64,000 bases of DNA, from the NCBI RefSeq assembly GCF_014698475.1, contig NZ_JACJTB010000020.1, forward strand, positions 1 to 64,000. The letters are read 5' to 3'. This stretch comes from Nostoc spongiaeforme FACHB-130. Its GTDB lineage: Bacteria; Cyanobacteriota; Cyanobacteriia; Cyanobacteriales; Nostocaceae. A model generated the notes under the pieces. That model was given only the letters and a program-made list of their open reading frames with translations. It was not told the DNA's origin and searched no databases. The position numbers and the translations under genes are program-made. Below are positions 6,401-62,671 of this stretch, piece after piece. Within the stretch, counting starts at the first letter, position 1. Each line of letters begins with the position of its first letter.

Positions 6401-7407
6401 ACAGCAATCTCTCCTTCTTGCAAAATTTGCTGATACAAACCCAACAAACTCCCAGCAAATTTTTCGTCCGTGACAATCCTTTTCCGTATAGTTCTTAAAT
6501 GCTCTGGTTCATCCAAGGATTCCCAGTTATCAATAATTTGCTTTCTGACAACTTTTCCCACCCAATCCAAAGCATTTGGCTCTGGGGTGTAACATTCTGA
6601 ATATACAGATAGTTCTTGTAATAATAAATTACAAAGTTTCTGCGTTAAAAAAGGTTGTCCACCAGTCCAACATAAAACACCTTTCATCACTTCTTGAATA
6701 TTGCTAACTTTTCCCCTCAATCCTTCAGCTAAGGGCGCAATTTCATCTTCCTTAAAACCATTAAGTTGAACTGCTCGACCAATATTAAATGGCGTTCGTT
6801 TTTTATCATCAATCAAATCGCTGGGAGTAGCCACACCTAGCAAAGCAAAGGTCAAACGATTTAAATCTGGATTTAAAGCACGCTTTTCATAACAACTTCT
6901 AATCAGAGCAAAAAAATTATTAGAGTGCCGAAACTTTAAATTTAAACTTAAAATACTATCGATTTCATCAATAAAAATAATAATATTACCCTTGACATTT
7001 GGCAGCATTACCTCTTCCAAAAACGAACCAAATCGCTGCACAGGAGATAATTGAATACGTTTATCCCACCAAATAAATAATTCTTCGGGTGGAGATAAAA
7101 CTTGTAGTTGATTCACCAAGATGTAAGCAATACCTGTATACCATTGTTCAAGGCTGCTTTCCTGACTACCTTCATCAATACCTATTTCGGTTAAATCAAT
7201 CTTGGCACAAGCAAAACCCTCTGTTTGCAATCGTTTCATTGTCCGATTCAGCAAGCTGGTTTTACCCATTTGTCGGGAGTTAAAGACAAAACAAAACTCC
7301 CCCGCTTTCAACCACTGATAAAATTCTGTGTCGGCTTTTCTAAATACGTAACTGGGGGCATTTTCTGGTAAACCACCACCAACTTTGTACTCATAATGTC
7401 CCGTCAT
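3409..7407 (-). CDS. Giant NTPase–WD40 signalling protein: N-terminal AAA-like ATPase domain (pfam14516-like), coiled-coil region, single predicted transmembrane helix, second coiled coil, C-terminal run of about 14 WD40 repeats (two beta-propellers)
   Basis: 1332 aa. The Walker A motif [10 protein letters not shown] lies in an AAA-like N-terminus. A hydrophobic segment [26 protein letters not shown] sits between E/K/Q-rich coiled coils. The C-terminus has many [26 protein letters not shown]40 units. Confidence 0.85.
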
Positions 7408-10033: not shown

Positions 10034-12142
10034 TTGCCCAACAGGGCGCATAATATGAAAACTTTTCCATCTTGCTTTGGTAAGAGTAAGCAAAATAAAT
10101 TAGTTCGTTTGGGATTGTCAGCATTAACAGCCTTAGCCATCACGGGCGGTATACATTCAGCTAATGCAGCTTCCCTAAAAACCCAAAGTTCAGCAGAAAT
10201 CGCTTCAGCATCAGTCAGCCTCAGTCAAACACAAGCCGTTACTAATCAGCCTTCCTATCAAGCAATGCAGATAGCACCATTGATTCCCATAGTGGTGCTT
10301 GGTGGCGTTGTTATATTTGTGCCGTTGTTTTTTGGCGGACTCGTAGTGATTGGCGAACGGGAAGTTGGCATTGTCGTGAAAAAATTTGCCCTCTCTGGAC
10401 GCGGACTACCACCCGGAAGATTAATTGCCCTCAACGGTGAAGCTGGTTTGCAAGCCGATACCCTTGCACCGGGTTGGCATTGGGGTTACTGGCCTTGGCA
10501 ATATTCGGTTCGTAAAGAATCGGTGGTGGTAGTACCCCAAGGTGAAATCGCTCTGATTGTAGCCGCAGATGGCGCATCCAACCCACCAGAGAGGATTTTG
10601 GGCAAAATTGTCGATTGTGATAATTTCCAAGATGCACGCAAGTTTCTGACCAATGGCGGCGAAAAAGGCCGTCAAATGGGCTTTCTGACTGCTGGGACTT
10701 ACCGCATTAACACCGCACTGTTTCGCGTCATTATGGCGGCGAATGCCAAACACAATGATATGCAGGCCGAACAATTGCGGGTGTATAGTGTGGCATCAGA
10801 TAAAGTCGGCATTGTCACCACTTTGGATGGTTTACCGATTCCGGCTGGTGAAATTGCAGGGCCGATGATTCCTGGACACGATAATTTCCAGAATGGTCAA
10901 AAATTCCTCAATGCTGGTGGACGCAGAGGTTTGCAAGAGCAAATTTTACTGTCTGGTTCTTGGAACCTGAACCCCTGGTTTGTGCAGGTTGAGCAAGTCC
11001 CCATGTCTGAAATCCCGATTGGTTATGTGGGTGTGGTGATTTCTTTCGTTGGTCAATCTCAAGAAGATGTCAGTGGCGCAACTTTCACGCATGGTAACTT
11101 GGTGAATCCTGGACACAAAGGTGTGTGGATAGAACCGTTGTATCCAGGTAAGCATCCCGTCAACTCTCGAATTATGAAAATTGAGTTGGTTCCCACGACT
11201 AACATTGTGTTGAATTGGTCAAGTCGTACCGAACGCCACAGCTATGATGCTCATTTGGCTTCCTTGACAGTACGATCGCGCGATGGTTTTGCCTTTGATT
11301 TAGAAGTCGCCCAAATTATTCACGTCGGCGCTTTGGATGCACCAAAGGTAATTTCCCGTGTGGGTTCTATGCAAAATTTAGTTGACCATGTATTAGAACC
11401 GACCATTGGTAACTATTTCCGCAACTCTGCCCAAGATTACACTGTACTTGATTTTCTCACCGCCCGGAGCGATCGCCAAGCAGAAGCGGCTGAGTATATT
11501 AGAGCAGCATTACGCGCTTATGATGTACAAGCAATTGACACCTTAATCGGTGATATTCAGCCCCCAGCATCCTTGATGCAAACCCAAACAGACCGCAAAA
11601 TTGCTGAAGAACAACGCAAAACCTACGAAGTGCAGCAGGTAGCCCAAACCCAACGCCAACAACTTGTGCGGGAAACAGCATTGGCTGACATTCAACAAGA
11701 AATGGTGAAATCAGAAAAAAGCGTCCAAATTGCGGAACTCAAAGCCCAAGCCCAAATTCAACACGCCACTGGGGAAGCCGAAGGAATCAAATTACGCGCC
11801 ATAGCCGAAGCCGAAGGGATTCGCGCCACAGGTAACGCCAAAGCCGAAACCTACCGCGCAGGTGTGGAAGCCTTGGGACAACAAGGTTATACAGCTATGC
11901 AATTGATGCAGATTATAGGCGATCGCAACGTCCGATTGATACCAGAAGTTTTAGTCAGTGGTAACGGTAGTAATAATGGCTTGGTAGATGGTTTACTTTC
12001 AATGATTTTATGGAATCAAACAGCCAAGCAAGGTGAAGTCACACCCACACCTTTACATCCACAACCCATAGTTGTGAATAACCCAGCAGTTTCACCAAAT
12101 AATCACTCGCCCATAGTTGCGGAATTCCCAACGGATAAGTAA
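10034..12142 (+). CDS. SPFH/band-7 (flotillin-like) domain membrane protein
   Basis: 702 aa with an N-terminal signal/TM, a central SPFH-like region, and a C-terminal A/E/Q-rich coiled coil (EAEGIKLRAIAEAEGIRATGNAKAETYRAGVEA) typical of flotillin-like proteins. Confidence 0.65.
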   Translation: MPNRAHNMKTFPSCFGKSKQNKLVRLGLSALTALAITGGIHSANAASLKTQSSAEIASASVSLSQTQAVTNQPSYQAMQIAPLIPIVVLGGVVIFVPLFFGGLVVIGEREVGIVVKKFALSGRGLPPGRLIALNGEAGLQADTLAPGWHWGYWPWQYSVRKESVVVVPQGEIALIVAADGASNPPERILGKIVDCDNFQDARKFLTNGGEKGRQMGFLTAGTYRINTALFRVIMAANAKHNDMQAEQLRVYSVASDKVGIVTTLDGLPIPAGEIAGPMIPGHDNFQNGQKFLNAGGRRGLQEQILLSGSWNLNPWFVQVEQVPMSEIPIGYVGVVISFVGQSQEDVSGATFTHGNLVNPGHKGVWIEPLYPGKHPVNSRIMKIELVPTTNIVLNWSSRTERHSYDAHLASLTVRSRDGFAFDLEVAQIIHVGALDAPKVISRVGSMQNLVDHVLEPTIGNYFRNSAQDYTVLDFLTARSDRQAEAAEYIRAALRAYDVQAIDTLIGDIQPPASLMQTQTDRKIAEEQRKTYEVQQVAQTQRQQLVRETALADIQQEMVKSEKSVQIAELKAQAQIQHATGEAEGIKLRAIAEAEGIRATGNAKAETYRAGVEALGQQGYTAMQLMQIIGDRNVRLIPEVLVSGNGSNNGLVDGLLSMILWNQTAKQGEVTPTPLHPQPIVVNNPAVSPNNHSPIVAEFPTDK

Positions 12143-12559: not shown

Positions 12560-14560
12560 ATGGCATTTGTTGATGAAATCACACCTGAACAAAAATCTTT
12601 AATGCCAAGTTATCGAGAGAAATGGCATGAAATAGCATTTTTAACAAATAGAATTGACCAACAAAAATCTATATCAGCAATTCAAGATGTCTATGAACTA
12701 CTGAAACTGCCCACACCAGAAATTCAATTATTTGATAGTTTATATGCAGCAACAAAAATAGCAAAGCCTCTGTATAAGCGTCCTTACTTCACTGAAACTG
12801 GTTTAGTACATGCAAATGAATTAATAGGTAAGATACATGAGAAGTTGTATATTAACAATATAAATGCTATTGGTCATTGGGATGAATTTATTAATTCTCA
12901 ATTGCGTCCTGGGGCAACTTCAGAAATAGACAGACAGTTATCAGAGAGTTTTAAGAATTACCTTTTAGAAGATAAATCAAAATCTTTTTCATCCAGTTAT
13001 AACTATTATTGGTTTGTTCCTCTTCATTGGTATGCCCGTGAAGGTGGATTCTTCGATTTTCATTTCTCCGTAGTCAGTCATACGCTATTTGAACCTTATG
13101 ATGAATCTGCTTGGAAAGTATTTCAGAAGCTTGTTAAATCGTGTGGTTGGATTATTCCTTTTGAAAACATTTGTTTAGTTTGCGATCGCCCAACTCAGTT
13201 TTTGTTTGATTCCGAAAATTTACTTCATGCAGAAGGAGAAGCAGCAGTTAAATTTATTGATGGCAATGGGCTTTATTCTTACCACGGCGTTACGCTGCCA
13301 ATGGAATATGGAGAAAATCACCCTCATCAATGGCAACCAAAGTGGTTATTAGATGAAACTGATACAGAACTCAAAAAAATTCTAGTTCGAGCTATTACAA
13401 GCAAGGCTGAAAACTATAAAACTCGCTATTTTAAAGAAGCTTTAGAAATGGCTGCCAGCGTAGGAAGGCTGAATATTGTTCAACAGATATTAGCAATACA
13501 GAAATTTGATGGTCATTCTCTATCTAATGCTCTGGCTCATGGAGTCTGGAGTAGAGATATCAAAATTCTAGAAGTTTTAGTTCAGGCTGGTGCTTACTTA
13601 AATCTCCGCACAGAGTGGGGTACACCTTTGATTGCTGCTGCCAGAACAGGAGATGTGAGGATTGTCCGTTACTTGGTAGAAGCAGGCGCAGATCCAAATA
13701 TGTGGATAGACTACGATGGTTACATGAGTCCGCTTTCAGAAGCAAGCTATGAAGGACATCAGGAAGTTTGTGATTATCTTCTCCCTTTAATCACAGACCC
13801 AGAAGAAATTGAATATGCCGAACGAGAGTTACCAAAAGCAGTAATTCGCAAACAGCGACGAGAAAATCAATCCCTACAAAAATTCTTTGATGCTGTTAGT
13901 GAGAGTGATGCAACTACAGTGCGTGAGTTAGTTGCACAAGGTCTAGATATCAATTCTTTAAATGAAAATGGTATTACTGCTGTTCATTGTGCCGTTAATG
14001 GTGGTAATGTACGAATGATCAAGTTGCTGGCAGAATTAGGAGTAGATTTAAATCGCCTCGATGAAGATGGGCGAACGCCCTTGATGAGGGCAATTGGCAT
14101 CTATGCTTTTCAAGCTAGGGCATTGCGGACTTTAATTCGTGCTGGGGCTGACTTCAACTATAGAGATCAGGAAGGATACACAGCTTTGGACTATGCGGTT
14201 TTAGATTCCAGTATCCCAAGAGTTTTTGAAAAAATCCTGCTCTCTGCTGGCGCTCAACATGGTTGTTGGAAAGGAACAGAAATTCATCTTGCAGCCTCAA
14301 GCGGTAATGTCAGGTTAATTAATATTTTGGTATCTTCTGGGATAGATGTTAACCTGTTCTCTGAAACAGATGGTTTAACTCCACTCATGAAAGCTGTTAT
14401 ACATTCCAGAGCTTGGGCAATGCGAACTTTAATCCGTGCTGGTGCAAATGTTAACAGCAGAACTGAGAATGGCGAAACAGCGTTATATTTTGCTGAACAT
14501 ACAGGTAAGAAACATCCAGTGATTAAAAAGATTTTGCTAAAAGTTGGTGCAACGTACTAA
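12560..14560 (+). CDS. Ankyrin-repeat protein with an N-terminal domain of unknown function
   Basis: 666 aa. The C-terminal half contains about 8 ankyrin repeats (G.TPL..A...G....V..L...GAD.N). Confidence 0.75.
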   Translation: MAFVDEITPEQKSLMPSYREKWHEIAFLTNRIDQQKSISAIQDVYELLKLPTPEIQLFDSLYAATKIAKPLYKRPYFTETGLVHANELIGKIHEKLYINNINAIGHWDEFINSQLRPGATSEIDRQLSESFKNYLLEDKSKSFSSSYNYYWFVPLHWYAREGGFFDFHFSVVSHTLFEPYDESAWKVFQKLVKSCGWIIPFENICLVCDRPTQFLFDSENLLHAEGEAAVKFIDGNGLYSYHGVTLPMEYGENHPHQWQPKWLLDETDTELKKILVRAITSKAENYKTRYFKEALEMAASVGRLNIVQQILAIQKFDGHSLSNALAHGVWSRDIKILEVLVQAGAYLNLRTEWGTPLIAAARTGDVRIVRYLVEAGADPNMWIDYDGYMSPLSEASYEGHQEVCDYLLPLITDPEEIEYAERELPKAVIRKQRRENQSLQKFFDAVSESDATTVRELVAQGLDINSLNENGITAVHCAVNGGNVRMIKLLAELGVDLNRLDEDGRTPLMRAIGIYAFQARALRTLIRAGADFNYRDQEGYTALDYAVLDSSIPRVFEKILLSAGAQHGCWKGTEIHLAASSGNVRLINILVSSGIDVNLFSETDGLTPLMKAVIHSRAWAMRTLIRAGANVNSRTENGETALYFAEHTGKKHPVIKKILLKVGATY

Positions 14561-43417: not shown

Positions 43418-44071
43418 TTGGGTCTGGTAGAAGTTGCGATCGCAGATAATAAAATTAATCTGATGGGCAAAATACCGATGGAACCTCTCACCCTCAACAT
43501 ACCACCAGCAGTAGGTTTGACAGACGAGCAGTTTTATCAAATATGTCTAGCCAATGATGAATGGCGCATCGAACTCACTGCCGAAGGAGAATTAATTATT
43601 ATGCCACCAACTGGCGGCGAAAGCGGTATTAGAAATTCAGACATTAACATAGAACTTGGTTTATGGAATCGTCAAACCAAGCTAGGAAAAGTGTTTGACT
43701 CTTCTACAGAATTTCGCTTACCCAATGGTGCATATCGTTCGCCGGATGTTTCTTGGGTGAAGCAAGAACGCTGGGATGCACTGACACCTGAACAAAAACG
43801 TCGCTTTCCACCCATTTGCCCTGATTTTGTGATTGAACTGCGTTCTCAAACTGATTCTCTCAAAAAATTGCGAGATAAGATGCTGGAGTATCGAGATAAT
43901 GGTGCGCGTTTGGGTTGGTTGATTGATCCGTTCACACCTTTAGTAGAAATTTATCGCCCTGGTATTGCAGTGGAAGTGATTAATTTTTCTGTTGAACAAC
44001 CACCTACATTGTCTGGTGAAGATGTCTTACCTGGGTTTGTTTTGTTGTTAACTACAATCCTCAATCCTTGA
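43418..44071 (+). CDS. Uma2-family (DUF820) putative endonuclease, tandem copy 1
   Basis: 217 aa with the Uma2 pattern. It is near-identical to the next gene. Confidence 0.8.
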   Translation: MGLVEVAIADNKINLMGKIPMEPLTLNIPPAVGLTDEQFYQICLANDEWRIELTAEGELIIMPPTGGESGIRNSDINIELGLWNRQTKLGKVFDSSTEFRLPNGAYRSPDVSWVKQERWDALTPEQKRRFPPICPDFVIELRSQTDSLKKLRDKMLEYRDNGARLGWLIDPFTPLVEIYRPGIAVEVINFSVEQPPTLSGEDVLPGFVLLLTTILNP

Positions 44072-44106: not shown

Positions 44107-44715
44107 ATGGGCAAAATACCGATGGAACCTCTCACTCTCAACATACCACCCGCAGTAGGTTTGACAGACGAGCAGTTTTATCAAATATGTCTAGCCAATG
44201 ATGAATGGCGCATCGAACTGACTGCCGAAGGAGAATTAATCATTATGCCACCAACTGGCGGCGAAAGCGGTATTAGAAATTCAGGGTTGACAGCTAAACT
44301 TTACATTTGGAATGAACAAGCAAATCTGGGAAAAGTGTTTGACTCTTCTACAGAATTTCGCTTACCCAATGGTGCGTATCGTTCGCCGGATGTTTCTTGG
44401 GTGAAGCAAGAACGCTGGGATGCACTGACACTTGAACAAAAACGCCGCTTTCCGCCCATTTGCCCTGATTTTGTGATTGAACTGCGTTTTCAAACTGATT
44501 CTCTCAAAAAATTGCGGGATAAGATGCTGGAGTATCGAGATAATGGTGCGCGTTTAGGTTGGTTGATTGATCCGTTCACACCTTTAGTAGAAATTTATCG
44601 CCCTGGTGTGGAGGTGGAAGTGATCAATTTCGCTGTTGAACAACCACCTACATTGTCTGGTGAAGATGTATTGCCAGGATTTATCTTATCTTTAACTACA
44701 ATACTTAATCCTTGA
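44107..44715 (+). CDS. Uma2-family (DUF820) putative endonuclease, tandem copy 2
   Basis: 202 aa, more than 90% identical to copy 1 at the protein level and with near-identical upstream sequence. Confidence 0.8.
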   Translation: MGKIPMEPLTLNIPPAVGLTDEQFYQICLANDEWRIELTAEGELIIMPPTGGESGIRNSGLTAKLYIWNEQANLGKVFDSSTEFRLPNGAYRSPDVSWVKQERWDALTLEQKRRFPPICPDFVIELRFQTDSLKKLRDKMLEYRDNGARLGWLIDPFTPLVEIYRPGVEVEVINFAVEQPPTLSGEDVLPGFILSLTTILNP

Positions 44716-48367: not shown

Positions 48368-48988
48368 CTACACTAAACCTGCTTGAAAAATTTGGTTTGG
48401 GGTGAGATTCAAATCAGGGAAAGTTTGGGAGATAATTCGGTCATCGCCTCGGAACTTGCTAACCTGATATTCTCCCTCAACTAAATTACAAACAGATATG
48501 GTTGGTTGTTTGGGATTACCAATAAAATTACGTCCACCCAACGCGGCGTAATCTATAATCCAGTATTCGGGGATACCCATCTCTTCATAATCAGCAAATT
48601 TCATATAGTAATCGTCTCGCCAGTTGGTTGACACAACCTCGATTACCAAAGGAATTGAAGCACCTAAGCCGACAACAGATTCTTTTTTCCATAATGGTTC
48701 ATTTGCCAGATTGGTACGATTCAGCACTAACACATCGGGAAAATAACCAGAATCTTTTTCTAGTGGTCTGACAATAACTTGATTGGGGATGATGTAGGGA
48801 AGCCCTAAACGTCTGATTTCAAAAGGGATTTCGATACCTAAGAACCCTTTGACTTCCTCATGGTCTCCTACTGGTTGTGCCATTTCAACGATACTTCCAT
48901 TATGTAATTCGTAGCGTACCCCGGAATTTTCACGTAGGCGATCGACAAATTCCGCAAAGGTGACTAACTTGGGGATGGCTTGAGTCAT
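48368..48988 (-). CDS. Uma2-family (DUF820) putative endonuclease, long subtype
   Basis: 206 aa with the pattern FAEF......RYEL.NG.I.EMA.P...H..V...L....P.....Y.D..V... Confidence 0.75.
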   Translation of the reverse strand: MTQAIPKLVTFAEFVDRLRENSGVRYELHNGSIVEMAQPVGDHEEVKGFLGIEIPFEIRRLGLPYIIPNQVIVRPLEKDSGYFPDVLVLNRTNLANEPLWKKESVVGLGASIPLVIEVVSTNWRDDYYMKFADYEEMGIPEYWIIDYAALGGRNFIGNPKQPTISVCNLVEGEYQVSKFRGDDRIISQTFPDLNLTPNQIFQAGLV

Positions 48989-53529: not shown

Positions 53530-56500
53530 TTGCTAAAGCTGGTGTATATACTCATATTTAAACAATACACTAGGCGATCGCAAGCAATTATGTCGGAATT
53601 ATTTCTTGGGTGGGTAGCGACTAATGCTGTTGGGCTATTGGTTAAGACAATTATGACTCAGGATTTTGTTAAGGAATTTGCTCAGGATTTAGCCAAAGAC
53701 TACGCTAAAGACTTTTTCAAAGACCGTTTTAATAATGTCCCCATAGCACTATTTGAGAAAGAACCACTGCAAAAAGCTATTATTAAAGCACTGAAAGAGT
53801 TTTTTCAAATTGTAGAAGACGAGTTGAAGTTGTGCCAAGTATCGGCAGCAGACATTAAGAAATTTGCTAAACCTCTAAAAACGTTTATATATAATAAATC
53901 TGTTAAACAAATTTTAGGAAGAGCCTTTAAAGACGATTGTAATTCTCTTAATTATCAAGAACTCAGAAATATCTGGGATGAGCTTAATTTACCGATTATG
54001 CCAGCTAACTTTAACTGGCAATCGGTTACACAAAAATATATTGAAAAATGTCAAGAAATTCTTGGAGACTCATCTGAACTACGCAGTATTTTATTGGGTC
54101 AGAGACTTGAAGAAATTCTCAGATTTTTAAAAGAGAATCGTAGTATTACGCCAGATTTTGATTTACCAAAATATCTAGAAACTATTCGTGAGCGGTACAT
54201 TAGTTTAAAGCTGCATCGTTTAGAGAATAAAGGCAGCGAATTGAGGATTAATTTATGGCAAATATTTATTCCTCAAAATGTCCGCGAAGTTTATCAGGTA
54301 TTGCCAGAATTACCTAAAGAACATCTCCGCCGATTACAAGCAACTCAGCAATTAGACACTGAATTTGATTTAGAAGAATTAGACCGCTATAAACGCAATT
54401 ATGTTCAGCAACCGATACGTTCAGTATTAGATGTTATCCAAGAAAAACGCTCAAAAAATTATCTTGTAATCTTAGGCGATCCGGGTTCGGGTAAGTCTAC
54501 GTTACTTCATTACTTAGCATTAAAATGGGTTGAGGAAACTTTGACGCTGAAAGATTTTTCTCTGCCGATTCCCTTGCTGATTGAATTGAACAGTTATGTG
54601 CGCGATCGCAATGAGCAATGTAATAATTTTCTGCAATATTATAATCACGCCCCCAAGTGCTTCTTTCATCTCAATCAGCATAAACTGCACGAACAACTAA
54701 AGGCAGGTAATGCTTTAGTTATGTTTGATGGATTAGATGAAATCTTTGATTCAGTGATGCGAAACGAAGTCATTGATTCTATTCATCGCTTTACTAACGA
54801 ATATCCAGATGTGCAAGTAATTGTCACTTCTCGGATTATTGGCTATCAACCTCAAGTATTACAAGATGCTGAATTTAGACATTTCATTTTGCAAGATTTA
54901 GAGTTAGAACAAATTACCGATTTTATTGAACGATGGCATGAAAGGACTTTTAATGTCACTGATAAAGAAGAAAAAGACCTTAAACAAGAGCGACTGCAAA
55001 AAGCAATTAAAGAATCACAAGCCATTGCTGAACTAGCAGGAAATCCTCTGCTACTAACTATGATGGCAATTCTCAATCTCAGTCAAGAACTACCTAGAGA
55101 TAGACCAGAACTTTATAATCAAGCATCCAGAGTATTGTTACACAAGTGGGATGTGGAACGTGCTTTAGAAACAGATAAATGGGCTATCAATGATAAAGAT
55201 AAGCAAGCCATGCTACGTCAAGTTGCCTATACTATGCAAACTAGCGATGCAGGTTTAGCTGGCAATGTGATTAGTGAAGATAGTTTAATTAATGTTCTGA
55301 CTGAATATTTAAAAGAAGAGTTAGAGTTTGAGCAACCCAAATTAGCGGCAAGGAGAATAATTGACCAACTACGGACTCGTAACTTTATGTTATGCTTTCG
55401 TGGTGCTGATTACTATGGTTTTGTACATCGAACTTTTTTGGAATATTTCTGTGCTGCGTATTTTGTCTGGCGATTTGAGAAGAAACGGAATATTTCATTA
55501 ACAACGGAAGTTTTTGGCAAACATTGGGATGATGAAACTTGGCATGAAGTGTTGCTGTTAATTGCTGGGATGATTGAACCCGAATATGTTGGTGAGATTC
55601 TTGAGTATTTAATGGTGCAGGATGGTGAAGAAAAGAAATTTATCAATCTCTTTTTAGCAGCAAAATGTCTTGTTGAAGTCAGACATCGCTCAAAGATGAG
55701 AAAAGTAGCTGATAAATTACTGAATCAGTTAAAAGATTTAATTGAATATGATGTCTGGTATTATTATCGACCCATCTTCGATGACGACGAAAATCGGCTA
55801 GTACGAGAAATTCGCACTCAAGCAGTCACAGCAATAGCCACAACTTGGCAAGATGACACCAGTAAAACCTTTCTCCAAGAACTCGCCAATAGCAAAGATG
55901 TTGATTCGGATGTGCGGGGGACAGCAGTGGCACAATTAGCCCAGGCTTACAAGGATGACACAACTAAAACCCTTCTCCTAAAACTCGCCATTGCCAAAGA
56001 TGTTGATTCGTCTGTGCGAATTACAGCAGTGGCACAATTAGCTAAAGCTTACAAGGATGACTTCACTAAAACCCTTCTCTTACAACTCGCCACTACCAAA
56101 GATGTTGATTCGTTTGTGCGACAGATAGCAGTGCTACAATTAGCCCAGGTTTACAAGGATGACTCCACTAAAACCCTTCTCCTACAACTCGCCACTGCCA
56201 AAGATGTTGATAAATATGTGCGAATTACAGCAGTGGCACAATTAGCTAAAGCTTACAAGGATGACTCCACCAAAACCCTTCTCCTACAACTCGCCAATGC
56301 CAAAGATGTTGATTCGTCTGTGCAACGGACAGCAGTGGCACAATTAGCCCAGGCTTACAAGGATGACTCCACTAAAACCCTTCTCCTAAAACTCGCCACT
56401 GCCAAAGATGTTGATTCGGATGTGCGGGTGACAGCAGTGGAACAATTAGCCCAGGCTTACAAGGATGACTCCACCAAAACCCTTCTCCTACAACTCGCCA

Positions 56501-57102
56501 CTGCCCAGGATGTTGATGAATATGTACGAGTGATAGCAGTGGCACAATTAGCCCAGGCTTACAAGGATGACTCCACCAAAACCTTTCTCCTACAACTCGC
56601 CACTGCCAAAGATGTTGATTCGTCTGTGCGACGGACAGCAGTGGCACAATTAGCCCAGGCTTACAAGGATGACTCCACCAAAACCTTTCTCCTACAACTC
56701 GCTACTGCCCAGGATGATAATTGGTATATGCAAGAGACAGCAGTGGAAAAATTAGCCCAGGCTTACAAGGATGACTCCACTAAAACCCTTCTCCTACAAC
56801 TCGCTACTGCCCAGGATGATAACTGGTATAAGCGACGGACAGCAGTGGCACAGTTAGCTAAAGCTTACAAATCTCAGCCTGAACTTTTTGAAATCTACTA
56901 TAACTGTGCAGCCAATGACCCTTTTCAGGGTAGCCATGAAGATTTTTTTCCAAATCCCCGACGCGTTGCACTGGAGATAATTATCAAGCAGTATCCTCAG
57001 CATGAGCGGACTTTACCACTGTTGCGCGATCGCGCCGAAAATGACCCAGATGAGCAAGTAAGGGAATATGCTCAGAAAAAATTGGCAGAATTAGAGAAGT
57101 AA
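53530..57102 (+). CDS. STAND NTPase: unknown alpha-helical N-terminal domain (~290 aa), NACHT P-loop NTPase, C-terminal array of ~9 near-identical 39-aa HEAT/PBS-lyase-like repeats
   Basis: 1190 aa with the Walker A motif LVILGDPGSGKSTLL and Walker B ALVMFDGLDE. The repeats KDVDS.VR.TAVAQLAQAYKDDSTKTLLLQLATA recur with a 117-bp period from about 55850 to 56880. The true start is probably the Met at about 53590. Confidence 0.85.
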   Translation: MLKLVYILIFKQYTRRSQAIMSELFLGWVATNAVGLLVKTIMTQDFVKEFAQDLAKDYAKDFFKDRFNNVPIALFEKEPLQKAIIKALKEFFQIVEDELKLCQVSAADIKKFAKPLKTFIYNKSVKQILGRAFKDDCNSLNYQELRNIWDELNLPIMPANFNWQSVTQKYIEKCQEILGDSSELRSILLGQRLEEILRFLKENRSITPDFDLPKYLETIRERYISLKLHRLENKGSELRINLWQIFIPQNVREVYQVLPELPKEHLRRLQATQQLDTEFDLEELDRYKRNYVQQPIRSVLDVIQEKRSKNYLVILGDPGSGKSTLLHYLALKWVEETLTLKDFSLPIPLLIELNSYVRDRNEQCNNFLQYYNHAPKCFFHLNQHKLHEQLKAGNALVMFDGLDEIFDSVMRNEVIDSIHRFTNEYPDVQVIVTSRIIGYQPQVLQDAEFRHFILQDLELEQITDFIERWHERTFNVTDKEEKDLKQERLQKAIKESQAIAELAGNPLLLTMMAILNLSQELPRDRPELYNQASRVLLHKWDVERALETDKWAINDKDKQAMLRQVAYTMQTSDAGLAGNVISEDSLINVLTEYLKEELEFEQPKLAARRIIDQLRTRNFMLCFRGADYYGFVHRTFLEYFCAAYFVWRFEKKRNISLTTEVFGKHWDDETWHEVLLLIAGMIEPEYVGEILEYLMVQDGEEKKFINLFLAAKCLVEVRHRSKMRKVADKLLNQLKDLIEYDVWYYYRPIFDDDENRLVREIRTQAVTAIATTWQDDTSKTFLQELANSKDVDSDVRGTAVAQLAQAYKDDTTKTLLLKLAIAKDVDSSVRITAVAQLAKAYKDDFTKTLLLQLATTKDVDSFVRQIAVLQLAQVYKDDSTKTLLLQLATAKDVDKYVRITAVAQLAKAYKDDSTKTLLLQLANAKDVDSSVQRTAVAQLAQAYKDDSTKTLLLKLATAKDVDSDVRVTAVEQLAQAYKDDSTKTLLLQLATAQDVDEYVRVIAVAQLAQAYKDDSTKTFLLQLATAKDVDSSVRRTAVAQLAQAYKDDSTKTFLLQLATAQDDNWYMQETAVEKLAQAYKDDSTKTLLLQLATAQDDNWYKRRTAVAQLAKAYKSQPELFEIYYNCAANDPFQGSHEDFFPNPRRVALEIIIKQYPQHERTLPLLRDRAENDPDEQVREYAQKKLAELEK

Positions 57103-57117
57103 GATTGGCGAAAAATT

Positions 57118-57348
57118 ATGAATAACACAGACATTCGTCAGCAAATTAACCAATATCTAGACCGATTATCTTCAGAACGTCTACAACTAGTTGCTGACTT
57201 TTTAGCATACCTAGCAGACAAGGAGAGTGAAGACGCTACCCAAGAATTACTTGATACTCCTGGATTTATTGAGTCATTCGAGAGAGGTAAAAAAGATATT
57301 GCTGAGAATCGGGTAAAAAACTGGAGAACAATTCGGTCTGATGTATGA
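57118..57348 (+). CDS. Antitoxin partner of the RelE/ParE toxin
   Basis: 76-aa acidic protein overlapping the toxin gene by 8 bp. Confidence 0.55.
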   Translation: MNNTDIRQQINQYLDRLSSERLQLVADFLAYLADKESEDATQELLDTPGFIESFERGKKDIAENRVKNWRTIRSDV

Positions 57349-57601
57349 CGTTGTTTTATCTGCTGAGGTAGAAGAGATTTATACTTCAGCAGACCAAGCC
57401 TTAGCCAAAAAGATTGCTCGATGCTTGGAGTATTTAGAACAAAATCCTCGATTTCATCCCAACATTAAATCCCTTAAAGGTGACTTGGCAGGTTATTACC
57501 GCTATCGTATTGGCAATTATCGCGTAATTTACCAAATTGATGATGACGCAAATCAAGTCATTGTTAATACTATTGTTCACCGACGAGAAGCGTATGAATA
57601 A
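57341..57601 (+). CDS. RelE/ParE-family toxin
   Basis: 86 aa with the C-terminal motif GYYRYRIGNYRVIYQIDDDANQVIVNTIVHRREAY. Confidence 0.75.
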   Translation: MYDVVLSAEVEEIYTSADQALAKKIARCLEYLEQNPRFHPNIKSLKGDLAGYYRYRIGNYRVIYQIDDDANQVIVNTIVHRREAYE

Positions 57602-57818
57602 CAAATACACAATTATTATTCAATGGTCAGATGAAGATGATTGTTTTGTTGTTAGCCTGCCTGAGTGGGGAGATTATTGTCACACTCACGGAGATACTTA
57701 TGAGGAAGCTTTAAAAAATGCTCAGGAAGTTTTAGAAATGCTAATTGAATCAGCTTTAGAAGATGGTGAAACTTTGCCAGAGCCGCAAACTTTGGGCAAG
57801 CCTTTAAAAGTAGCATAA
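57597..57818 (+). CDS. hicB: HicB-like (UPF0150) antitoxin with no adjacent HicA
   Basis: MNNKYTIIIQWSDEDDCFVVSLPEWGDYCHTHGDTYEEALKNAQEVLEMLIE is the typical HicB N-terminal domain. Its start overlaps the RelE stop codon. Confidence 0.6.
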   Translation, partial: NNKYTIIIQWSDEDDCFVVSLPEWGDYCHTHGDTYEEALKNAQEVLEMLIESALEDGETLPEPQTLGKPLKVA

Positions 57819-58333: not shown

Positions 58334-58567
58334 CTAGGTTAAATTACTTGCTTCCTCTACTGCTTGCTTTAACTCTTCAAAGGTAATACTACCGTCTTCG
58401 TCGGAATCATACTGTACTATCAACTCTTGGGGACTAGTGGTATGTGTTTGTGATGAGATGACTGCACTTAAGCCAGGACTTAAAAAAAGCTCATTAATGG
58501 AGATTTTACCGTCTTGATCGCGATCTAAGGTATTAAAAAGAGATTGAAGTTCTTGCTCGGTTGTCAT
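58334..58567 (-). CDS. EF-hand calcium-binding protein (two EF-hand loops)
   Basis: Two 12-residue EF-hand loops, DRDQDGKISINE and DSDEDGSITFEE. Confidence 0.7.
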   Translation of the reverse strand: MTTEQELQSLFNTLDRDQDGKISINELFLSPGLSAVISSQTHTTSPQELIVQYDSDEDGSITFEELKQAVEEASNLT

Positions 58568-59263: not shown

Positions 59264-60016
59264 ATGCAAGAGTCATTAGACAGTAATCAACCAGCGACAG
59301 TAGCGCCTGATTCTGTAAAAACATCCCTGCTGAAAAATTTACTCTCTGCTGGCACTTCTTTTGAGCCAGTGTTGAGTGATTTTCGGATTATTTTTGAACG
59401 TGACCCGGCTGCACGTAATTGGTTAGAGGTGGTGTTTTGTTACCCTGGCTTCCACGCGCTTTGTTTACATCGTCTGGCTAACTGGTTGCATCGTCGAGGG
59501 GTAGCTTTCTTTCCGCGTTTCATTTCTCATATTGGTCGATTCTTAACCGGAATTGAAATTCACCCAGGTGCAGAGATTGGTAAAGGGGTATTTATCGACC
59601 ACGGGATGGGGGTTGTGATTGGTGAAACGGCGATTGTGGGAGACTACACGCTGATTTATCAAGGTGTGACTCTCGGCGGAACTGGGAAGGAAAGCGGGAA
59701 ACGTCACCCGACTGTGGGTAACAACGTTGTGATTGGTTCTGGTGCGAAGGTTTTAGGAAATATTCAATTAGGCGATCGCGTCCGTGTGGGTGCAGGTTCG
59801 GTTGTGTTGCGTGATGTTCCGGCTGATTCCACAGTTGTTGGGGTTCCCGGACGGATTATTTCTCGCAAAGACAAGAATCAATCTCCTCTAGAACATAACA
59901 AGCTCCCGGATGTGGAAGCCACTGTGATTCGTTCCTTATTATCTCGCATTGAGCAACTTGAACAAAAACTCAAAACTTACGAGTCAACGGTAATTCACAG
60001 GACAAATGACAAATAA
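59264..60016 (+). CDS. cysE: Serine O-acetyltransferase
   Basis: 250 aa with the hexapeptide-repeat region [26 protein letters not shown] and the CysE N-terminal helical domain. Confidence 0.88.
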
Positions 60017-60239
60017 TACTTTAGGTGAGCAAATTTTACAGATTCCGTTGAGCGATCGCTGGCGAATTTATCACCGTTTGCAAGAGTTAATGATTCCCTG
60101 CGCTTGTCACCCTGATGGTTCTTTACGAGTCCAAGTTAACAGTTTACTGGCAGCAATTTTAGTCCGTAGTACGATTATGCAATTTTTTGCGCCGCGTCAA
60201 GAATTGGTCAACTGGTTAAAACATTGTTGGGATTTATAA
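60006..60239 (+). CDS. Small conserved cyanobacterial hypothetical protein downstream of cysE
   Basis: 77-aa ORF overlapping cysE by 11 bp. Confidence 0.4.
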
Positions 60240-60362
60240 ACCAGTCTTGACATATCGAAAAAATCAGCCTCTCCTTTATTTTTAACTCTGATTTTTTTAG
60301 TTGCCTAAATTGCATTCTCAATCTTTAATTCTCCTCTATACTTATCTGTTTCTGGTTTAGTT

Positions 60363-60560
60363 ATGTCCACCCGCACGAAAGAATCAAAATTCATCAAATT
60401 TTTACATACAGAACTCGAACTCACCAATGCAGATATTGCTGTAGCACTGCGACACAAAAAGTTTGATGATGCACCATTACCGATGCTGCTTTGGCAATAT
60501 GGATTGGTCAATTTAGAACAGCTAGAACAAATTTTAGATTGGCTAGATGAGCAGAGATGA
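60363..60560 (+). CDS. Small conserved cyanobacterial hypothetical protein
   Basis: 65-aa ORF in the same orientation, within the cysE–nifV interval. Confidence 0.4.
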   Translation: MSTRTKESKFIKFLHTELELTNADIAVALRHKKFDDAPLPMLLWQYGLVNLEQLEQILDWLDEQR

Positions 60561-61022
60561 GGGACTTCCAACTAAAAAATATCCAATGATGAGGAGTAGC
60601 AGAGGGAGCAGAGGAGCAGGGGAGCGGAGGGAGAAAAAGATTCTAATCAATATTTTTGCTCTTTGACGTTGAATAATTTAATTTCTGGAAGTCACTAAAA
60701 GAATTTACGGTTTCAATGAGTTGGCGATCGCTAGTTACAACTTTTTGGCAGAAATGACTTGCAATTATCGGGAGATAGCACTATGATTTCTAGCTTTATT
60801 TTTGGATTTGTTTTCTTATTTGTTTCCAGTCTAGCTAACACCTATTTGGGCTATCTTCTACTAGAAAAAAGTGTGCATGACAATAGTGAAAAAGGCAGTT
60901 AAATTATACTGTCGTTTTGTTTTCTGTCATACAGATGCGATGTCTTTATCTCGTTAATATTAAAGAATGATGAAGACAAAATATTAATTGGATTAATTTA
61001 TAGCATTTACCTTTACTCAGCG

Positions 61023-62219
61023 TTGCGGAAAATAATTAACGCTACAGAAAGAATATTAAGAAAAATTCCTATGAGGCTGTTTGAAATGAGTGAAATCATA
61101 ATTAATGACACTACATTACGCGATGGCGAACAAGCAGCAGGTGTTGCTTTTACCTTAAAAGAGAAAATTGCGATCGCCAAATTTCTCGATGCTATCGGCG
61201 TGCATGAATTAGAAGTCGGTATCCCAGCGATGGGAGAAGATGAAATTCGTGCCATCTCAATCATTGCTGACTTGGGATTAAAAGCCAACCTCCTCGCCTG
61301 GAACCGCGCTGTAATTTCTGATATCAAAGCTTCCATTGCTTGTGGAATGCAGCGAGTACATATTGCGATTCCGGTTTCCGGTATCCAAATCGCTGCCAAG
61401 TTTCATGGACAGTGGCGAGTAAGTCTGCAAAGACTCAAAGATTGTATCAGTTACGCACGCGATCGCGGTCTTTGGGTAGCCGTCGGTGGCGAAGATTCTT
61501 CCAGAGCCGATGAAAACTTTTTGTTGGATGTCGCTCTGTATGCTCAAGAATGGGGTGCATCACGCTTTCGTTTCTGCGACACCGTAGGAGTTCTCGATCC
61601 TTTCACCACCTACAAAAAAGTTAAGCGCCTCGTTTCCTGGTTGTCGATTCCTGTAGAAATCCACACCCACAACGATTTCGGCTTGGCGACAGCTAACGCA
61701 CTTGCAGGAATTAAAGGTGGCGCAACATCTGTTAACACCACCGTCAACGGCTTGGGTGAAAGAGCAGGTAACGCCGCTTTAGAAGAAGTTGTCATGGCCA
61801 TCAAACGCATCTATGGCTTAGATATGGGAATTAACACACCCCGTTTGTTGGAATTATCGCAACTTGTAGCCGCAGCCGCCGGTGCTGGTGTACCACCTTG
61901 GAAAGCAATTGTTGGTGAGAATACCTTTGCTCACGAATCTGGAATTCATGCACACGGCGTATTACAAAACCCTAACACCTACGAACCCTTTGCACCAGAA
62001 GAAGTTGGTTGGGAAAGACGTTTAGTCGTTGGTAAGCATTCTGGAAAGCATTTGGTATCTAGCTTACTTCAGCAGCATGGTATCTTTCTCAACCCCGAAG
62101 AAACCCAATCTGTATTAGATGCAGTCCGCCAACAATCAGTTAAGAAAAAACGCAGCCTGACAACCGAAGAACTGTTGAACTTGGTAAAAGAACAGAGGTA
62201 TTCTCATGCAACCCGATGA
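61023..62219 (+). CDS. nifV: Homocitrate synthase
   Basis: [12 protein letters not shown]...[12 protein letters not shown] and the HTHND/GERAGN motifs indicate the HMGL-like homocitrate/isopropylmalate synthase family; it is followed by nifZ and nifT. The likely start is the Met at 61071 or 61086. Confidence 0.85.
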
Positions 62220-62493
62220 ATACGAATTAGAGTCAGAACCTGATTTTGAAATTGGTGAAAAAGTCAGACTCCGCAAACAAATTAAAAACGACGGGACATT
62301 TCCCGGTAGAGAAATTGGCGAAATTTTAGCGAAGAAAGGAGACATTGGTTACGTAGCAAGTATAGGCACTTTTTTACAACGTTCCTATATTTATGCAGTG
62401 CATTTTTTAGATAAAGGCATTGTTGTTGGTTGTCGCAAAAAAGAACTAGAATCTGCTGAGGAAAATCATGAAAGTAATGCTACGGATGAATGA
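62206..62493 (+). CDS. nifZ: NifZ
   Basis: 95 aa with the pattern [35 protein letters not shown]...G.FLQ...IY.VHF...G.VVGCR..ELE, which is typical NifZ. Confidence 0.8.
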
Positions 62494-62671
62494 TAATGGC
62501 AACTTAACCGTCTATGTTGCGAAAAAAGATTTAGAAGAAGTAGTAGTAAAGCAAACAGACGGTGAAGCTGGTAAAATTCTTACCTTAGCCAATGGTTGGG
62601 AATTAGAATTTCCCGAAATACCTGATGTAGCAAATTTGCCTAAAACTGTAGAAGCTAGACGCTTGGCTTAA
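62468..62671 (+). CDS. nifT: NifT/FixU
   Basis: 67 aa; MKVMLR..D.G.L.VYVAKKDLEE.VV....G...GKILTL.NGWEL matches NifT/FixU. Confidence 0.8.
   Translation: MKVMLRMNDNGNLTVYVAKKDLEEVVVKQTDGEAGKILTLANGWELEFPEIPDVANLPKTVEARRLA

What the first reader, a model, noticed from the sequence alone, without database searches (positions are those of the whole stretch)
53530..57102. NACHT-family STAND NTPase with unknown N-terminal domain and a hyper-repetitive HEAT-like sensor array, in a neighbourhood of cell-wall hydrolases and TA genes
The architecture is an unknown ~290-aa helical N-domain, a NACHT NTPase, and about 9 near-identical 39-aa HEAT/PBS-lyase-like repeats. This matches the effector–NTPase–repeat sensor logic of antiviral STANDs (Avs/NLR-like).

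The gene is divergent from an amidase_2 gene. A DUF3380 muramidase, a Uma2 nuclease, a RelE/ParE pair and a HicB gene also lie nearby. The N-terminal domain has no motif I can assign, so it could be a novel effector.
Basis: partly seen in the sequence, partly recalled or inferred. Interest (0 to 1): 0.6.

Follow-up and report, generated by a model that had tools for sequence, protein, structure and literature searches.

The report
Cyanobacterial NLR-like NACHT protein, HEAT sensor
This is an ordinary member of a large, already catalogued family of NLR-like (NACHT) proteins from filamentous cyanobacteria, with a named but functionally unknown N-terminal domain (Pfam NNH2) and a fast-evolving HEAT-repeat array that probably senses a ligand; its presumed immune role has never been tested.

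Summary
The gene is real. It most likely starts at ATG 53590 (1170 aa) and is 100% identical to a Nostoc spongiaeforme FACHB-130 protein.

- The N-terminal domain is not unassignable. It is Pfam PF22734 NNH2, "NACHT N-terminal Helical domain 2" (E=4.9e-52).
- The repeats are 10 x 34 aa, not about 9 x 39 aa.
- The NNH2+NACHT+HEAT architecture is already listed in Table S1 of Kibby et al. for cyanobacteria.
- More than 3,800 homologues exist, and the 120 best hits are almost all Nostocales.

**What holds up**
- The NACHT motifs are intact, and a full-length AF2 model matches NLRC4, NOD2 and NLRP3.
- The repeats are alphaRep-type HEAT-like units. Their variation concentrates on the positions that form the alphaRep binding face.
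- The repeat array diverges much faster than the rest of the protein (62% vs 93-95% identity to the closest orthologue). Copy number varies among homologues.

**What does not hold up**
- The amidase_2 and muramidase neighbours are not conserved, even beside the 94%-identical orthologue.
- Only toxin-antitoxin genes recur downstream, and only in a Nostocales subclade.
- The gene has no meaningful PADLOC hit.

NNH2 has no solved structural relative and no conserved catalytic-type residues.

**Verdict:** a new member of a known kind. Function is inferred, not shown.

The parts
53590..57102 (+). Coding sequence of the NNH2-NACHT-HEAT protein (1170 aa plus stop). The ORF is open from TTG 53530, but ATG 53590 is the likely start.
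   Evidence: ORF list and translation. It is 100% identical to P0001, the 1170-aa protein MBD2595833.1 of Nostoc spongiaeforme FACHB-130. Homologues align from residue 1.
53593..53655 (+). Conserved N-terminal hydrophobic helix (aa 2-22, SELFLGWVATNAVGLLVKTIM). It lies outside the Pfam NNH2 model.
   Evidence: aa 4-22 is the most hydrophobic 19-aa window in the protein (Kyte-Doolittle 1.58). The W..WG..GF.F motif is conserved across 50%-identity representatives. It is helical in both AF2 models, with pLDDT 57-79.
53677..54222 (+). NNH2 domain (Pfam PF22734, aa 30-211), all-alpha. It begins with the conserved KDYAKDFFKD motif (aa 36-45).
54253..54459 (+). Conserved pre-NACHT segment (aa 222-290, LWQIFIPQNVRE...), including a beta-strand at aa 230-234.
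   Evidence: Invariant or near-invariant residues L222, F226, Q229, R232 and P242 in diverse alignments. Secondary structure comes from the full-length model.
54460..54942 (+). NACHT nucleotide-binding domain (aa 291-451). Walker A GDPGSGKST is aa 296-304 (nt 54475-54501). Walker B LVMFDGLDE is aa 376-384 (nt 54715-54741). Sensor 1 TSR is aa 413-415.
   Evidence: Pfam NACHT E=1.7e-10, 41.4 bits against a cutoff of 26.7. These residues are invariant in the alignments.
54943..55749 (+). Helical and winged-helix part of the NACHT module (aa 452-720). It contains GNPLLL (aa 484-489) and the conserved histidine motif FVHRTFLEYF (aa 611-620, H613).
   Evidence: Motifs. N485, P486, H613, F616 and E618 are invariant. 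The full-length model matches NLRC4 4kxf, NOD2 5irm and NLRP3 at E around 1e-7.
55750..55851 (+). Degenerate first HEAT-like unit (aa 721-754).
   Evidence: Register and sequence. It is helical in the model (H732-752).
55852..56871 (+). Ten tandem 34-aa (102-nt) HEAT-like repeats (aa 755-1094), each a helix A, turn and helix B. Hypervariable positions are 19, 20, 23, 24, 27 and 31.
   Evidence: TRF period 102, 10.0 copies, 86% matches. Mean identity is 85% at nucleotide level and 74% at amino-acid level. Best PDB sequence matches are alphaRep proteins, E=5.4e-11. The six alphaRep-equivalent positions have mean entropy 1.44 against 0.40 elsewhere, permutation p=1.7e-4, and pN 0.37 > pS 0.24.
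56872..57099 (+). Degenerate C-terminal repeat units forming a cap (aa 1095-1170).
   Evidence: The cap is conserved among orthologues (NDPF...NPRRVALE...NDPDEQVREYA).
57118..57818 (+). Adjacent toxin-antitoxin genes; not shown to be functional parts of the system. They are a 76-aa antitoxin-like ORF (57118-57348, 16 nt after the stop), a ParE-type toxin (57341-57601) and a HicB-like gene (about 57594-57818).
   Evidence: Pfam results. No terminator-like site lies between them and the NACHT gene. TA genes sit at the same position in 8 of 59 loci, all close Nostocales-type relatives. Relative to NIES-21, HicA is replaced here by the antitoxin-ParE pair.

Best explanation
This is a stand-alone, chromosomally encoded bacterial NLR-related protein of the NACHT clade with the catalogued architecture NNH2-NACHT-HEAT.

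**Shown**
- Family membership.
- An intact NTPase and winged-helix module.
- A solenoid of ten near-identical alphaRep-type HEAT-like repeats. Sequence variation concentrates on one face of helix B.
- The array evolves by repeat gain/loss and homogenisation, much faster than the rest of the protein.

**Inferred from characterised NACHT/STAND proteins**
- The variable face of the HEAT solenoid binds a specific ligand. This is most likely a foreign (phage) protein or a guarded host protein.
- Binding releases autoinhibition. The NACHT module exchanges nucleotide and oligomerises.
- Oligomerisation clusters the N-terminal NNH2 domains, which provide the output.

**Nature of the output**
- NNH2 has no conserved catalytic-type residues and no known fold relative. 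It almost always sits at the extreme N-terminus, in the slot other bacterial NACHTs use for effectors.
- The output is therefore most likely non-enzymatic and proximity-driven.
- One option is insertion of the conserved N-terminal hydrophobic helix into the membrane. The other is recruitment of a partner.
- The likely result is growth arrest or death of the affected cell in the filament.
For: **Family and architecture**
- Pfam hits: NNH2 4.9e-52, NACHT 1.7e-10, HEAT_2 1.2e-28.
- The motifs Walker A, DGLDE, TSR, GNPLLL and H613 are present and invariant.
- The full-length AF2 model has pLDDT 85.2. Its top Foldseek hits are NLRC4, NOD2 and NLRP3 at E about 1e-7.
- Of 44 diverse family representatives, 44 have NNH2, 42 NACHT and 39 HEAT_2.
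- NNH2 is N-terminal, with Walker A near aa 294, in 71 of 75 long representatives.
- Kibby et al. Table S1 lists NNH2+NACHT+HEAT in cyanobacteria.

**Sensor behaviour of the repeats**
- The repeats are homologous to alphaRep proteins.
- The alphaRep binding-face positions 18, 19, 22, 23, 26 and 30 (PMC3754942) map onto this protein's most variable positions (entropy 1.44 vs 0.40, p=1.7e-4; pN>pS only there).
- Identity to the closest orthologue is 62% in the repeat region, against 93% in the N-domain and 95% in the NACHT region.
- That orthologue's repeats have their own consensus, which indicates concerted evolution.
- Homologue lengths are quantised in 34-aa steps (p=1e-8).
- The same regime is described for fungal NLR repeats (PMC4986451).

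**Analogy to tested proteins**
- Diverse bacterial NACHT proteins defend E. coli against phage. In bNACHT01, defence was abolished by Walker A (K115) mutation.
- 58% of cyanobacteria carry NACHT genes, which usually have their own promoter.
Against: - No member of the NNH2 clade has been tested. The PCC 7120 homologue all1888 appears in no searchable paper.
- PADLOC gives no meaningful hit. The NCBIfam EruA antiphage model scores only 43.9 bits against a cutoff of 1000.
- The gene is not in a recognisable defence island. Its neighbours are mainly housekeeping genes.
- No effector activity can be assigned to NNH2.
- The N-terminal helix is only borderline hydrophobic: KD 1.58 here and a family median of 1.34.
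- The repeat statistics compare paralogous units within one gene. Relaxed constraint plus gene conversion could contribute to the pattern.
Confidence: 0.6

Rival explanations
1. The sensor and switch work as above, but NNH2 is not the effector. It is a regulatory or oligomerisation extension of the NACHT module, comparable in role to FISNA in NLRP3. Output would then go through separate proteins, possibly the toxin-antitoxin genes that sit immediately downstream in a Nostocales subclade.
For: - NNH2 runs without a break into the conserved pre-NACHT segment, and its residues conserved at >=90% across the diverse set are almost all hydrophobic or aromatic.
- It has no effector-like fold match.
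- A small ORF starts 16-40 nt after the stop in the window and in L001, L012, L014, L015 and L042. No terminator-like site follows the stop in the window.
- The block NACHT, HicA or antitoxin-like ORF, HicB, orf84, orf179 recurs in at least three different genomic contexts.
Against: - TA genes lie downstream in only 8 of 59 loci with enough flank, all close relatives. They are absent next to all1888, Nostoc MS1 and Nodularia.
- The TA type is swapped between loci (HicA vs antitoxin-ParE). That fits an insertion hot spot better than a fixed partner.
- orf84 and orf179 are absent from this window.
Confidence: 0.22
2. The protein is not an anti-phage device. It is a cell-autonomous signalling or self/non-self (allorecognition, programmed cell death, developmental) NTPase of multicellular cyanobacteria, with the HEAT array binding an endogenous partner.
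For: - The 120 best hits are almost all filamentous, heterocyst-forming Nostocales, with further relatives in other cyanobacteria.
- It lies in stable chromosomal positions, including beside nif genes in four genomes.
- The closest evolutionary analogue of the repeat regime is fungal allorecognition NLRs.
- Native composition: HIP1 sites occur inside the gene.
Against: - Fast diversification of the putative binding face and copy-number change argue for a changing, external target.
- All experimentally tested bacterial NACHT proteins with a phenotype were antiphage.
Confidence: 0.13
3. One reading: the gene works together with the neighbouring amidase_2, muramidase and Uma2 genes as one defence or lysis island.
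For: - All these genes are present within 5 kb.
- The Uma2 gene at 48368-48988 matches the PADLOC candidate system PDC-S03 (E=1.3e-99).
- Uma2 genes lie upstream of homologues in L002, L003, L014 and L015.
Against: - Amidase_2 and muramidase homologues are found near the gene in 0 of 95 other loci.
- Synteny with the 94%-identical orthologue ends 91 nt upstream of the start codon.
- CobW, an SDR, a permease and a porin are interspersed among these genes.
- Uma2 genes are multi-copy: three lie in this window alone.
Confidence: 0.03

Closest known systems
Bacterial NACHT (bNACHT / NLR-related) proteins of Kibby et al., 'Bacterial NLR-related proteins protect against phage' (bioRxiv 10.1101/2022.07.19.500537)
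   Same: - NACHT module with the D[GAS]hDE signature.
- An 'antigen-receptor type' C-terminal array of superstructure-forming repeats.
- Single-gene organisation.
- The exact NNH2+NACHT+HEAT(_2) architecture is listed for Westiellopsis (clade 2) and Okeania (clade 3) in their Table S1.
   Different: - None of the 27 tested proteins is shown to be an NNH2-HEAT cyanobacterial member in the text available.
- The paper's Supplementary Discussion lists effector and adaptor domain types, and NNH is not among them.
- No phenotype is known for this clade.
Animal NLRs (NLRC4, NOD2, NLRP3)
   Same: They are the best structural matches of the full-length model (4kxf, 5irm, 7pzc; E about 1e-7). They share the domain order of N-terminal output module, NACHT and C-terminal repeat sensor.
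   Different: - Sequence identity is only 10-13%.
- The sensor is HEAT-like instead of LRR.
- The N-terminal module is NNH2 instead of CARD or PYD.
Fungal NWD/HET-E-type NLRs with internally conserved repeats (Dyrka et al. 2014, PMC4986451)
   Same: - High internal repeat identity.
- Concerted evolution and repeat-number change.
- Variation focused on a few positions of the interaction surface.
   Different: - Repeat type is HEAT-like here, against WD40, ANK or TPR in fungi.
- The host is a bacterium.
- Internal amino-acid identity is 74%, below the 85% threshold used for fungi.
- No allelic or population data are available here.
alphaRep artificial repeat proteins and their natural HEAT-like template family (Guellouz et al. 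2013, PMC3754942)
   Same: - They are the closest solved sequences to the repeats (4zv6_A, E=5.4e-11).
- They share the KD.D..VR..A..AL motif.
- The natural hypervariable positions randomised in alphaRep (18, 19, 22, 23, 26, 30, on the concave binding face) coincide with this protein's variable positions 19, 20, 23, 24, 27 and 31.
   Different: The period is 34 aa rather than 31 aa. The repeats here are fused to a NACHT switch, whereas alphaReps are engineered binders.
Avs / antiviral STAND NTPases
   Same: The tripartite logic is the same: N-terminal output, STAND NTPase, C-terminal repeat sensor that recognises a ligand. This rests on established knowledge of the Avs family.
   Different: No Avs model in PADLOC matches this protein. 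The NTPase is of the NACHT clade, and no nuclease, protease or other recognised effector is present.

Membership tests
NACHT clade of STAND NTPases | P-loop Walker A (GxxxxGK[ST]) | tested here: met
   GDPGSGKST at aa 296-304. G296, P298, G299, G301 and K302 are invariant in the alignments.
NACHT clade of STAND NTPases | Walker B with the D[GAS]hDE signature, as defined in Kibby et al. | tested here: met
   LVMFDGLDE at aa 376-384. D380, G381, D383 and E384 are invariant.
NACHT clade of STAND NTPases | Pfam NACHT (PF05729) above the gathering score | tested here: met
   41.4 bits against a cutoff of 26.7, aa 291-451.
NACHT clade of STAND NTPases | C-terminal helical and winged-helix extension with a conserved histidine; overall NLR-like fold | tested here: met
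   FVHRTFLEYF with invariant H613. The AF2 model's best matches are NLRC4, NOD2 and NLRP3.
NACHT clade of STAND NTPases | Nucleotide binding or hydrolysis and ligand-induced oligomerisation | not testable with these tools
   Needs biochemistry or cryo-EM.
NNH2 (Pfam PF22734) NACHT N-terminal helical domain 2 | Profile match above the gathering score, located directly N-terminal to a NACHT module | tested here: met
   176.7 bits against a cutoff of 27, aa 30-211, profile positions 1-179 of 181. All 44 diverse relatives match NNH2 and 42 also match NACHT.
HEAT-like (HEAT_2 / alphaRep-type) repeats | Tandem helix-turn-helix units matching HEAT_2, forming a solenoid | tested here: met
   HEAT_2 scores 99.7 bits over 7 stretches. 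alphaRep PDB hits reach E=5.4e-11. The AF2 model shows paired helices in every 34-aa unit, with pLDDT around 90.
   No HEAT_PBS family appears among the 23 Pfam hits at E<=0.1. No phycobilisome genes appear in any of the loci examined.
Avs and other catalogued defence systems (PADLOC-DB v2.0.0) | Significant match to a PADLOC model | tested here: not met
   The only hit is a P-loop-only match to mad8, E=0.017. DefenseFinder NLR models were not available.
EruA antiphage NACHT protein (NCBIfam NF058535) | Score at or above the equivalog cutoff (1000 bits) | tested here: not met
   43.9 bits, a partial match to the NACHT region only.
Experimentally validated antiphage bNACHT | Protection against phage that depends on Walker A | not testable with these tools
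   No literature exists on all1888 or on this clade.
HeLo / MLKL 4HB / plant CC-type membrane-disrupting N-domains (considered for NNH2) | Structural similarity to these helical-bundle execution domains | tested here: not met

The most novel reading that the evidence does not exclude
NNH2 may be a previously unrecognised, non-enzymatic cell-death execution domain with a new fold. Its conserved N-terminal hydrophobic helix (W..WG..GF.F) and the following KD-rich helix would be exposed when the NACHT module oligomerises. They would then permeabilise the membrane, making NNH2 a cyanobacterial functional analogue of plant CC or fungal HeLo domains. The domain would be coupled to a naturally 'alphaRep-like' hypervariable HEAT binder that tracks phage proteins through repeat shuffling.
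Probability: 0.15. Interest if true: 0.55.

Novelty: new member of a known kind. Interest (0 to 1): 0.25.

Why it matters
As found, this is one more uncharacterised NLR-like gene in a phylum known to carry many of them. It changes little.

Its value is as a clean example for two open questions about bacterial NLRs.

**What do NACHT proteins without a recognisable effector do?**
- NNH2 occupies the effector slot in hundreds of sequence clusters.
- It has no catalytic signature and no solved structural relative.

**How do bacterial NLR sensors diversify?**
- This array shows the repeat-shuffling and focused-variation regime known from fungal NLRs.
- It does so on the same scaffold that protein engineers randomise in alphaRep binders.

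A tractable homologue, all1888 in Nostoc/Anabaena PCC 7120, makes both questions testable.

Tried and rejected
1. **Literature search for 'NNH2'**. It returned only hydrazine and nitrogenase chemistry. Searches for 'all1888' and 'EruA'+'NACHT' found nothing.
3. **Genome-contig scan with a single protein query.** It gave only 7 loci. An alignment query should have been used. This was compensated by the metagenome scan (80 loci) and seven encoding-contig look-ups.
4. **Family-wide per-position repeat entropy**. It is blurred by 33- and 35-aa periods and one-residue register shifts. I use it only to show that high internal identity is common (median 66%, range 37-90%). Positional conclusions rest on this gene and on inspecting P0002 and P0003.
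5. **The first pN/pS split**. It used a variable set chosen after looking at the data. I replaced it with the a-priori alphaRep positions.
6. **Promoter and terminator scan**. It found 14 promoter-like sites against 12.5 expected and no terminators, so the transcription unit is not resolved.
7. **Viral contig scan**. It found only distant NACHT-only relatives (22-30% identity) and none with NNH2, so there is no sign the family is phage-borne.
8. **A nif-related function.** I considered it because the gene lies next to cysE-nifV-nifZ-nifT here and between nifB and nifV in three other genomes. I rejected it because homologues at 58-76% identity lie elsewhere.
9. **A constitutive membrane anchor for aa 2-22.** This is not supported: hydrophobicity is borderline.

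Full report
**1. What is in the sequence**

An uninterrupted ORF runs from 53530 to 57102 on the + strand. The first in-frame ATG is at 53590. Translation from it gives 1170 aa, 100% identical to protein MBD2595833.1 of Nostoc spongiaeforme FACHB-130 (P0001). RefSeq uses a GTG 16 codons upstream (1186 aa).

I take the ATG as the start. Orthologues and distant family members all begin at residue 1 with the same motif, M-x-[DE]-W-L..WG..GF.F...LAKD..KD..KDFFK.

The window is cyanobacterial chromosome. The HIP1 octamer GCGATCGC occurs 58 times against 0.33 expected, including twice inside the gene. The gene's GC content is unremarkable.

**2. Domain content**

Pfam gives three families above threshold:
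- NNH2 (PF22734, "NACHT N-terminal Helical domain 2"), aa 30-211, E=4.9e-52.
- NACHT, aa 291-451, E=1.7e-10.
- HEAT_2, seven stretches, E=1.2e-28.

So the N-terminal domain is not unassignable. It is a curated family, although one with no known function.

The NACHT hallmarks are all present and invariant in alignments of up to 61 homologues:
- Walker A GDPGSGKST (aa 296-304).
- Walker B with the D[GAS]hDE signature, DGLDE (aa 380-384).
- Sensor 1 TSR (aa 413-415).
- GNPLLL (aa 484-489).
- The winged-helix motif FVHRTFLEYF with H613.

An AF2 model of the whole protein has mean pLDDT 85.2 and pTM 0.69. Its best PDB matches are NLRC4, NOD2 and NLRP3 at E about 1e-7.

**3. The repeats**

TRF finds one array at 55852-56870: period 102 nt, 10.0 copies, 86% matches, no indels. 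At protein level this is ten 34-aa units (aa 755-1094). A degenerate unit precedes them and a degenerate two-unit cap follows.

Mean pairwise identity is 85% at nucleotide level but only 74% at amino-acid level. The differences are therefore enriched in replacements.

The nearest solved sequences are artificial alphaRep proteins (4zv6_A, E=5.4e-11). These were designed from a natural HEAT-like family. The naturally hypervariable positions 18, 19, 22, 23, 26 and 30 were randomised in them, and they form the concave binding face (PMC3754942).

The HMMER alignment maps those positions onto positions 19, 20, 23, 24, 27 and 31 here. In the model they lie along helix B, at i, i+1, i+4, i+5, i+8 and i+12. 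Using this a-priori set:

| Measure | Six alphaRep-equivalent positions | Other 28 positions |
|---|---|---|
| Mean entropy | 1.44 | 0.40 |
| pN | 0.37 | 0.087 |
| pS | 0.24 | 0.164 |

Only 0.017% of random six-position sets reach the observed mean entropy.

**4. Evolution of the array**

The closest orthologue is from Anabaenopsis circularis NIES-21 (P0002). Identity to it is 93% in the N-domain and 95% in the NACHT region, but only 62% in the repeat region. That protein has 12 repeats with their own consensus, and they vary at the same positions. This indicates homogenisation within each gene.

Homologue lengths cluster at about 1172, 1206, 1240 and 1275 aa, which are 34-aa steps (p=1e-8). 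High internal identity is common in the subfamily, with a median of 66% and a range of 37-90%.

This is the regime described for fungal NLR repeats: internal conservation, concerted evolution, and selection on a few surface positions (PMC4986451).

**5. The family**

A search with aa 1-737 returned more than 3,800 hits among the 8,000 candidates scored. The best 120 are almost all Nostocales and share the same architecture. The PCC 7120 member is all1888, and no paper in the searchable library mentions it.

The N-domain alone finds 375 clusters at 50% identity in 1.84 billion representatives. In those:
- The domain nearly always starts within the first 30 residues.
- A P-loop follows at about aa 294 in 71 of 75 long proteins.
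- Of 44 diverse representatives, 44 have NNH2, 42 NACHT, 39 HEAT_2, 2 TPR and 1 GUN4.
- Only two of the representatives examined carry an N-terminal extension, and neither extension has a Pfam domain.

Kibby et al. define "NNH" domains. Their Table S1 lists NNH2+NACHT+HEAT(_2) in Westiellopsis and Okeania, and NNH2+NACHT+FGE-sulfatase elsewhere. The architecture is therefore already catalogued. The tested proteins in that table carry bNACHT labels, and none of the NNH2 rows I could read does.

**6. What NNH2 might be**

An AF2 model of aa 1-290, built from a 65-sequence alignment, is all-alpha. It has pLDDT 81.3, with the core aa 60-180 mostly above 90.

Residues conserved at 90% or more across the diverse set are hydrophobic or aromatic (L79, W129, F141, W143, L164, Y195, L222, F226), prolines (P138, P242), or pre-NACHT residues (Q229, R232). 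A KD..KDFFKD motif is conserved among closer relatives. There is no catalytic-type constellation.

The first about 22 residues form the most hydrophobic window in the protein. It is only borderline, with KD 1.58 here and a family median of 1.34.

I conclude that NNH2 is non-enzymatic. Whether it is a membrane-active executioner, an adaptor, or a regulatory extension of the NTPase cannot be decided here.

**7. Genomic context**

- Among 95 other loci, no amidase_2 or muramidase homologue lies near the gene.
- DNA homology with the NIES-21 locus begins 91 nt upstream of the ATG and nowhere further upstream.
- The wider window encodes phosphoketolase, SbcC, CCB1, an OprB porin, a permease, CobW and an SDR.
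- PADLOC recognises only the Uma2 genes, as candidate system PDC-S03. The strongest hit is 48368-48988 (E=1.3e-99), and the copy at 43418-44071 hits weakly.

What does recur is a toxin-antitoxin gene immediately after the stop codon.
- HicA-HicB follows in NIES-21, Nostoc HK-01 and NIES-4073.
- A 76-aa antitoxin-like ORF follows in this window, L015 and L042.
- HicB alone follows in L005 and L011.
- That makes 8 of 59 loci with enough downstream sequence, all close relatives. It is absent next to all1888, Nostoc MS1 and Nodularia.
- In the window, HicA has been replaced by an antitoxin-ParE pair while HicB remains.

I read this as a lineage-specific TA insertion hot spot rather than a fixed component. 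The rival that TA genes serve as output cannot be excluded.

Downstream the gene is syntenic with cysE-asr1405-nifV-nifZ-nifT. In three other genomes it lies between nifB and nifV. Homologues elsewhere are not nif-linked, so I treat this as positional inheritance.

**8. Mechanism**

Shown:
- Family membership.
- Intact switch motifs.
- An NLR-like predicted fold.
- An alphaRep-type solenoid whose predicted binding face is the focus of variation.
- Rapid, repeat-wise evolution of that array.

Inferred from characterised NACHT/STAND proteins, including bNACHT01, whose defence was abolished by Walker A mutation:
- Ligand binding by the HEAT face.
- Nucleotide-dependent oligomerisation.
- Proximity-driven output through the clustered NNH2 domains, leading to growth arrest or death of the infected cell.

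The identity of the ligand, the output chemistry and the immune role itself are all untested.

**9. Comparison and verdict**

The gene is a member of the NACHT clade and of the NNH2-NACHT-HEAT family. It is not a member of Avs (no PADLOC hit), EruA (43.9 bits against a cutoff of 1000) or PBS-lyase HEAT families.

It works like an NLR on present evidence. Its repeat dynamics resemble fungal NWD genes.

Novelty is low: it is a new member of a known, catalogued kind. The only open and mildly interesting point is the unknown function and apparently new fold of NNH2. Interest is 0.25.

Noticed in passing
window 57085-57602, compared with L001 11700-11956: Relative to the closest orthologous locus (NIES-21), the HicA toxin gene right after the NACHT stop is replaced here by a 76-aa antitoxin-like ORF plus a ParE-type toxin. 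The HicB gene (57603-57818, about 83% nucleotide identity) is retained and so appears orphaned. This looks like a TA cassette swap at a fixed junction 16 nt after the stop.
   Followed up: partly
L001 11733-13116; also L012, L011, L005, L042, L014, L015, L002: The block NACHT, HicA or antitoxin-like ORF, HicB, an 84-aa ORF and a 179-aa ORF recurs next to homologues of 56-94% identity, in at least three different genomic contexts. The last two ORFs have no Pfam or PADLOC match. They are absent from this window, where an EF-hand gene (58334-58567, -) lies instead.
   Followed up: partly
window 59264-62671: A cysE-like acetyltransferase, an asr1405-like ORF, then nifV, nifZ and nifT follow the locus. 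In NIES-21, Nostoc HK-01 and N. sphaeroides the NACHT gene sits between a divergent nifB and this operon. No nifB is present anywhere in this window.
   Followed up: partly
window 3409-7407 (-): A second STAND-like gene lies in the same window. It encodes 1332 aa with an N-terminal AAA_35 ATPase domain (E=7.7e-29) followed by 13 WD40 repeats.
   Followed up: partly
window 43418-44071, 44107-44715 and 48368-48988 (-): There are three Uma2-family genes. The first two are tandem, nearly identical paralogues. The third matches the PADLOC candidate defence system PDC-S03 at E=1.3e-99, and the first matches it weakly.
   Followed up: partly
window 53530-53590: Three candidate starts exist for the gene: TTG 53530 (ORF finder), GTG 53542 (RefSeq, 1186 aa) and ATG 53590 (GenBank, 1170 aa). 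Family alignments favour the ATG.
   Followed up: yes
whole window: The HIP1 palindrome GCGATCGC occurs 58 times against 0.33 expected. This is the cyanobacterial hallmark, and it is also present inside the NACHT gene at 54602 and 57026.
   Followed up: yes
window 12560-14560 and 10034-12142: An ankyrin-repeat protein with a DUF6745 domain lies next to a 702-aa SPFH/Band 7 protein. Their function was not examined.
   Followed up: no
window 2938-3093 (-): A short tblastn match (40% identity over 53 aa) to the ParE-type toxin of 57341-57601. It may be a second ParE-like gene or a remnant.
   Followed up: no
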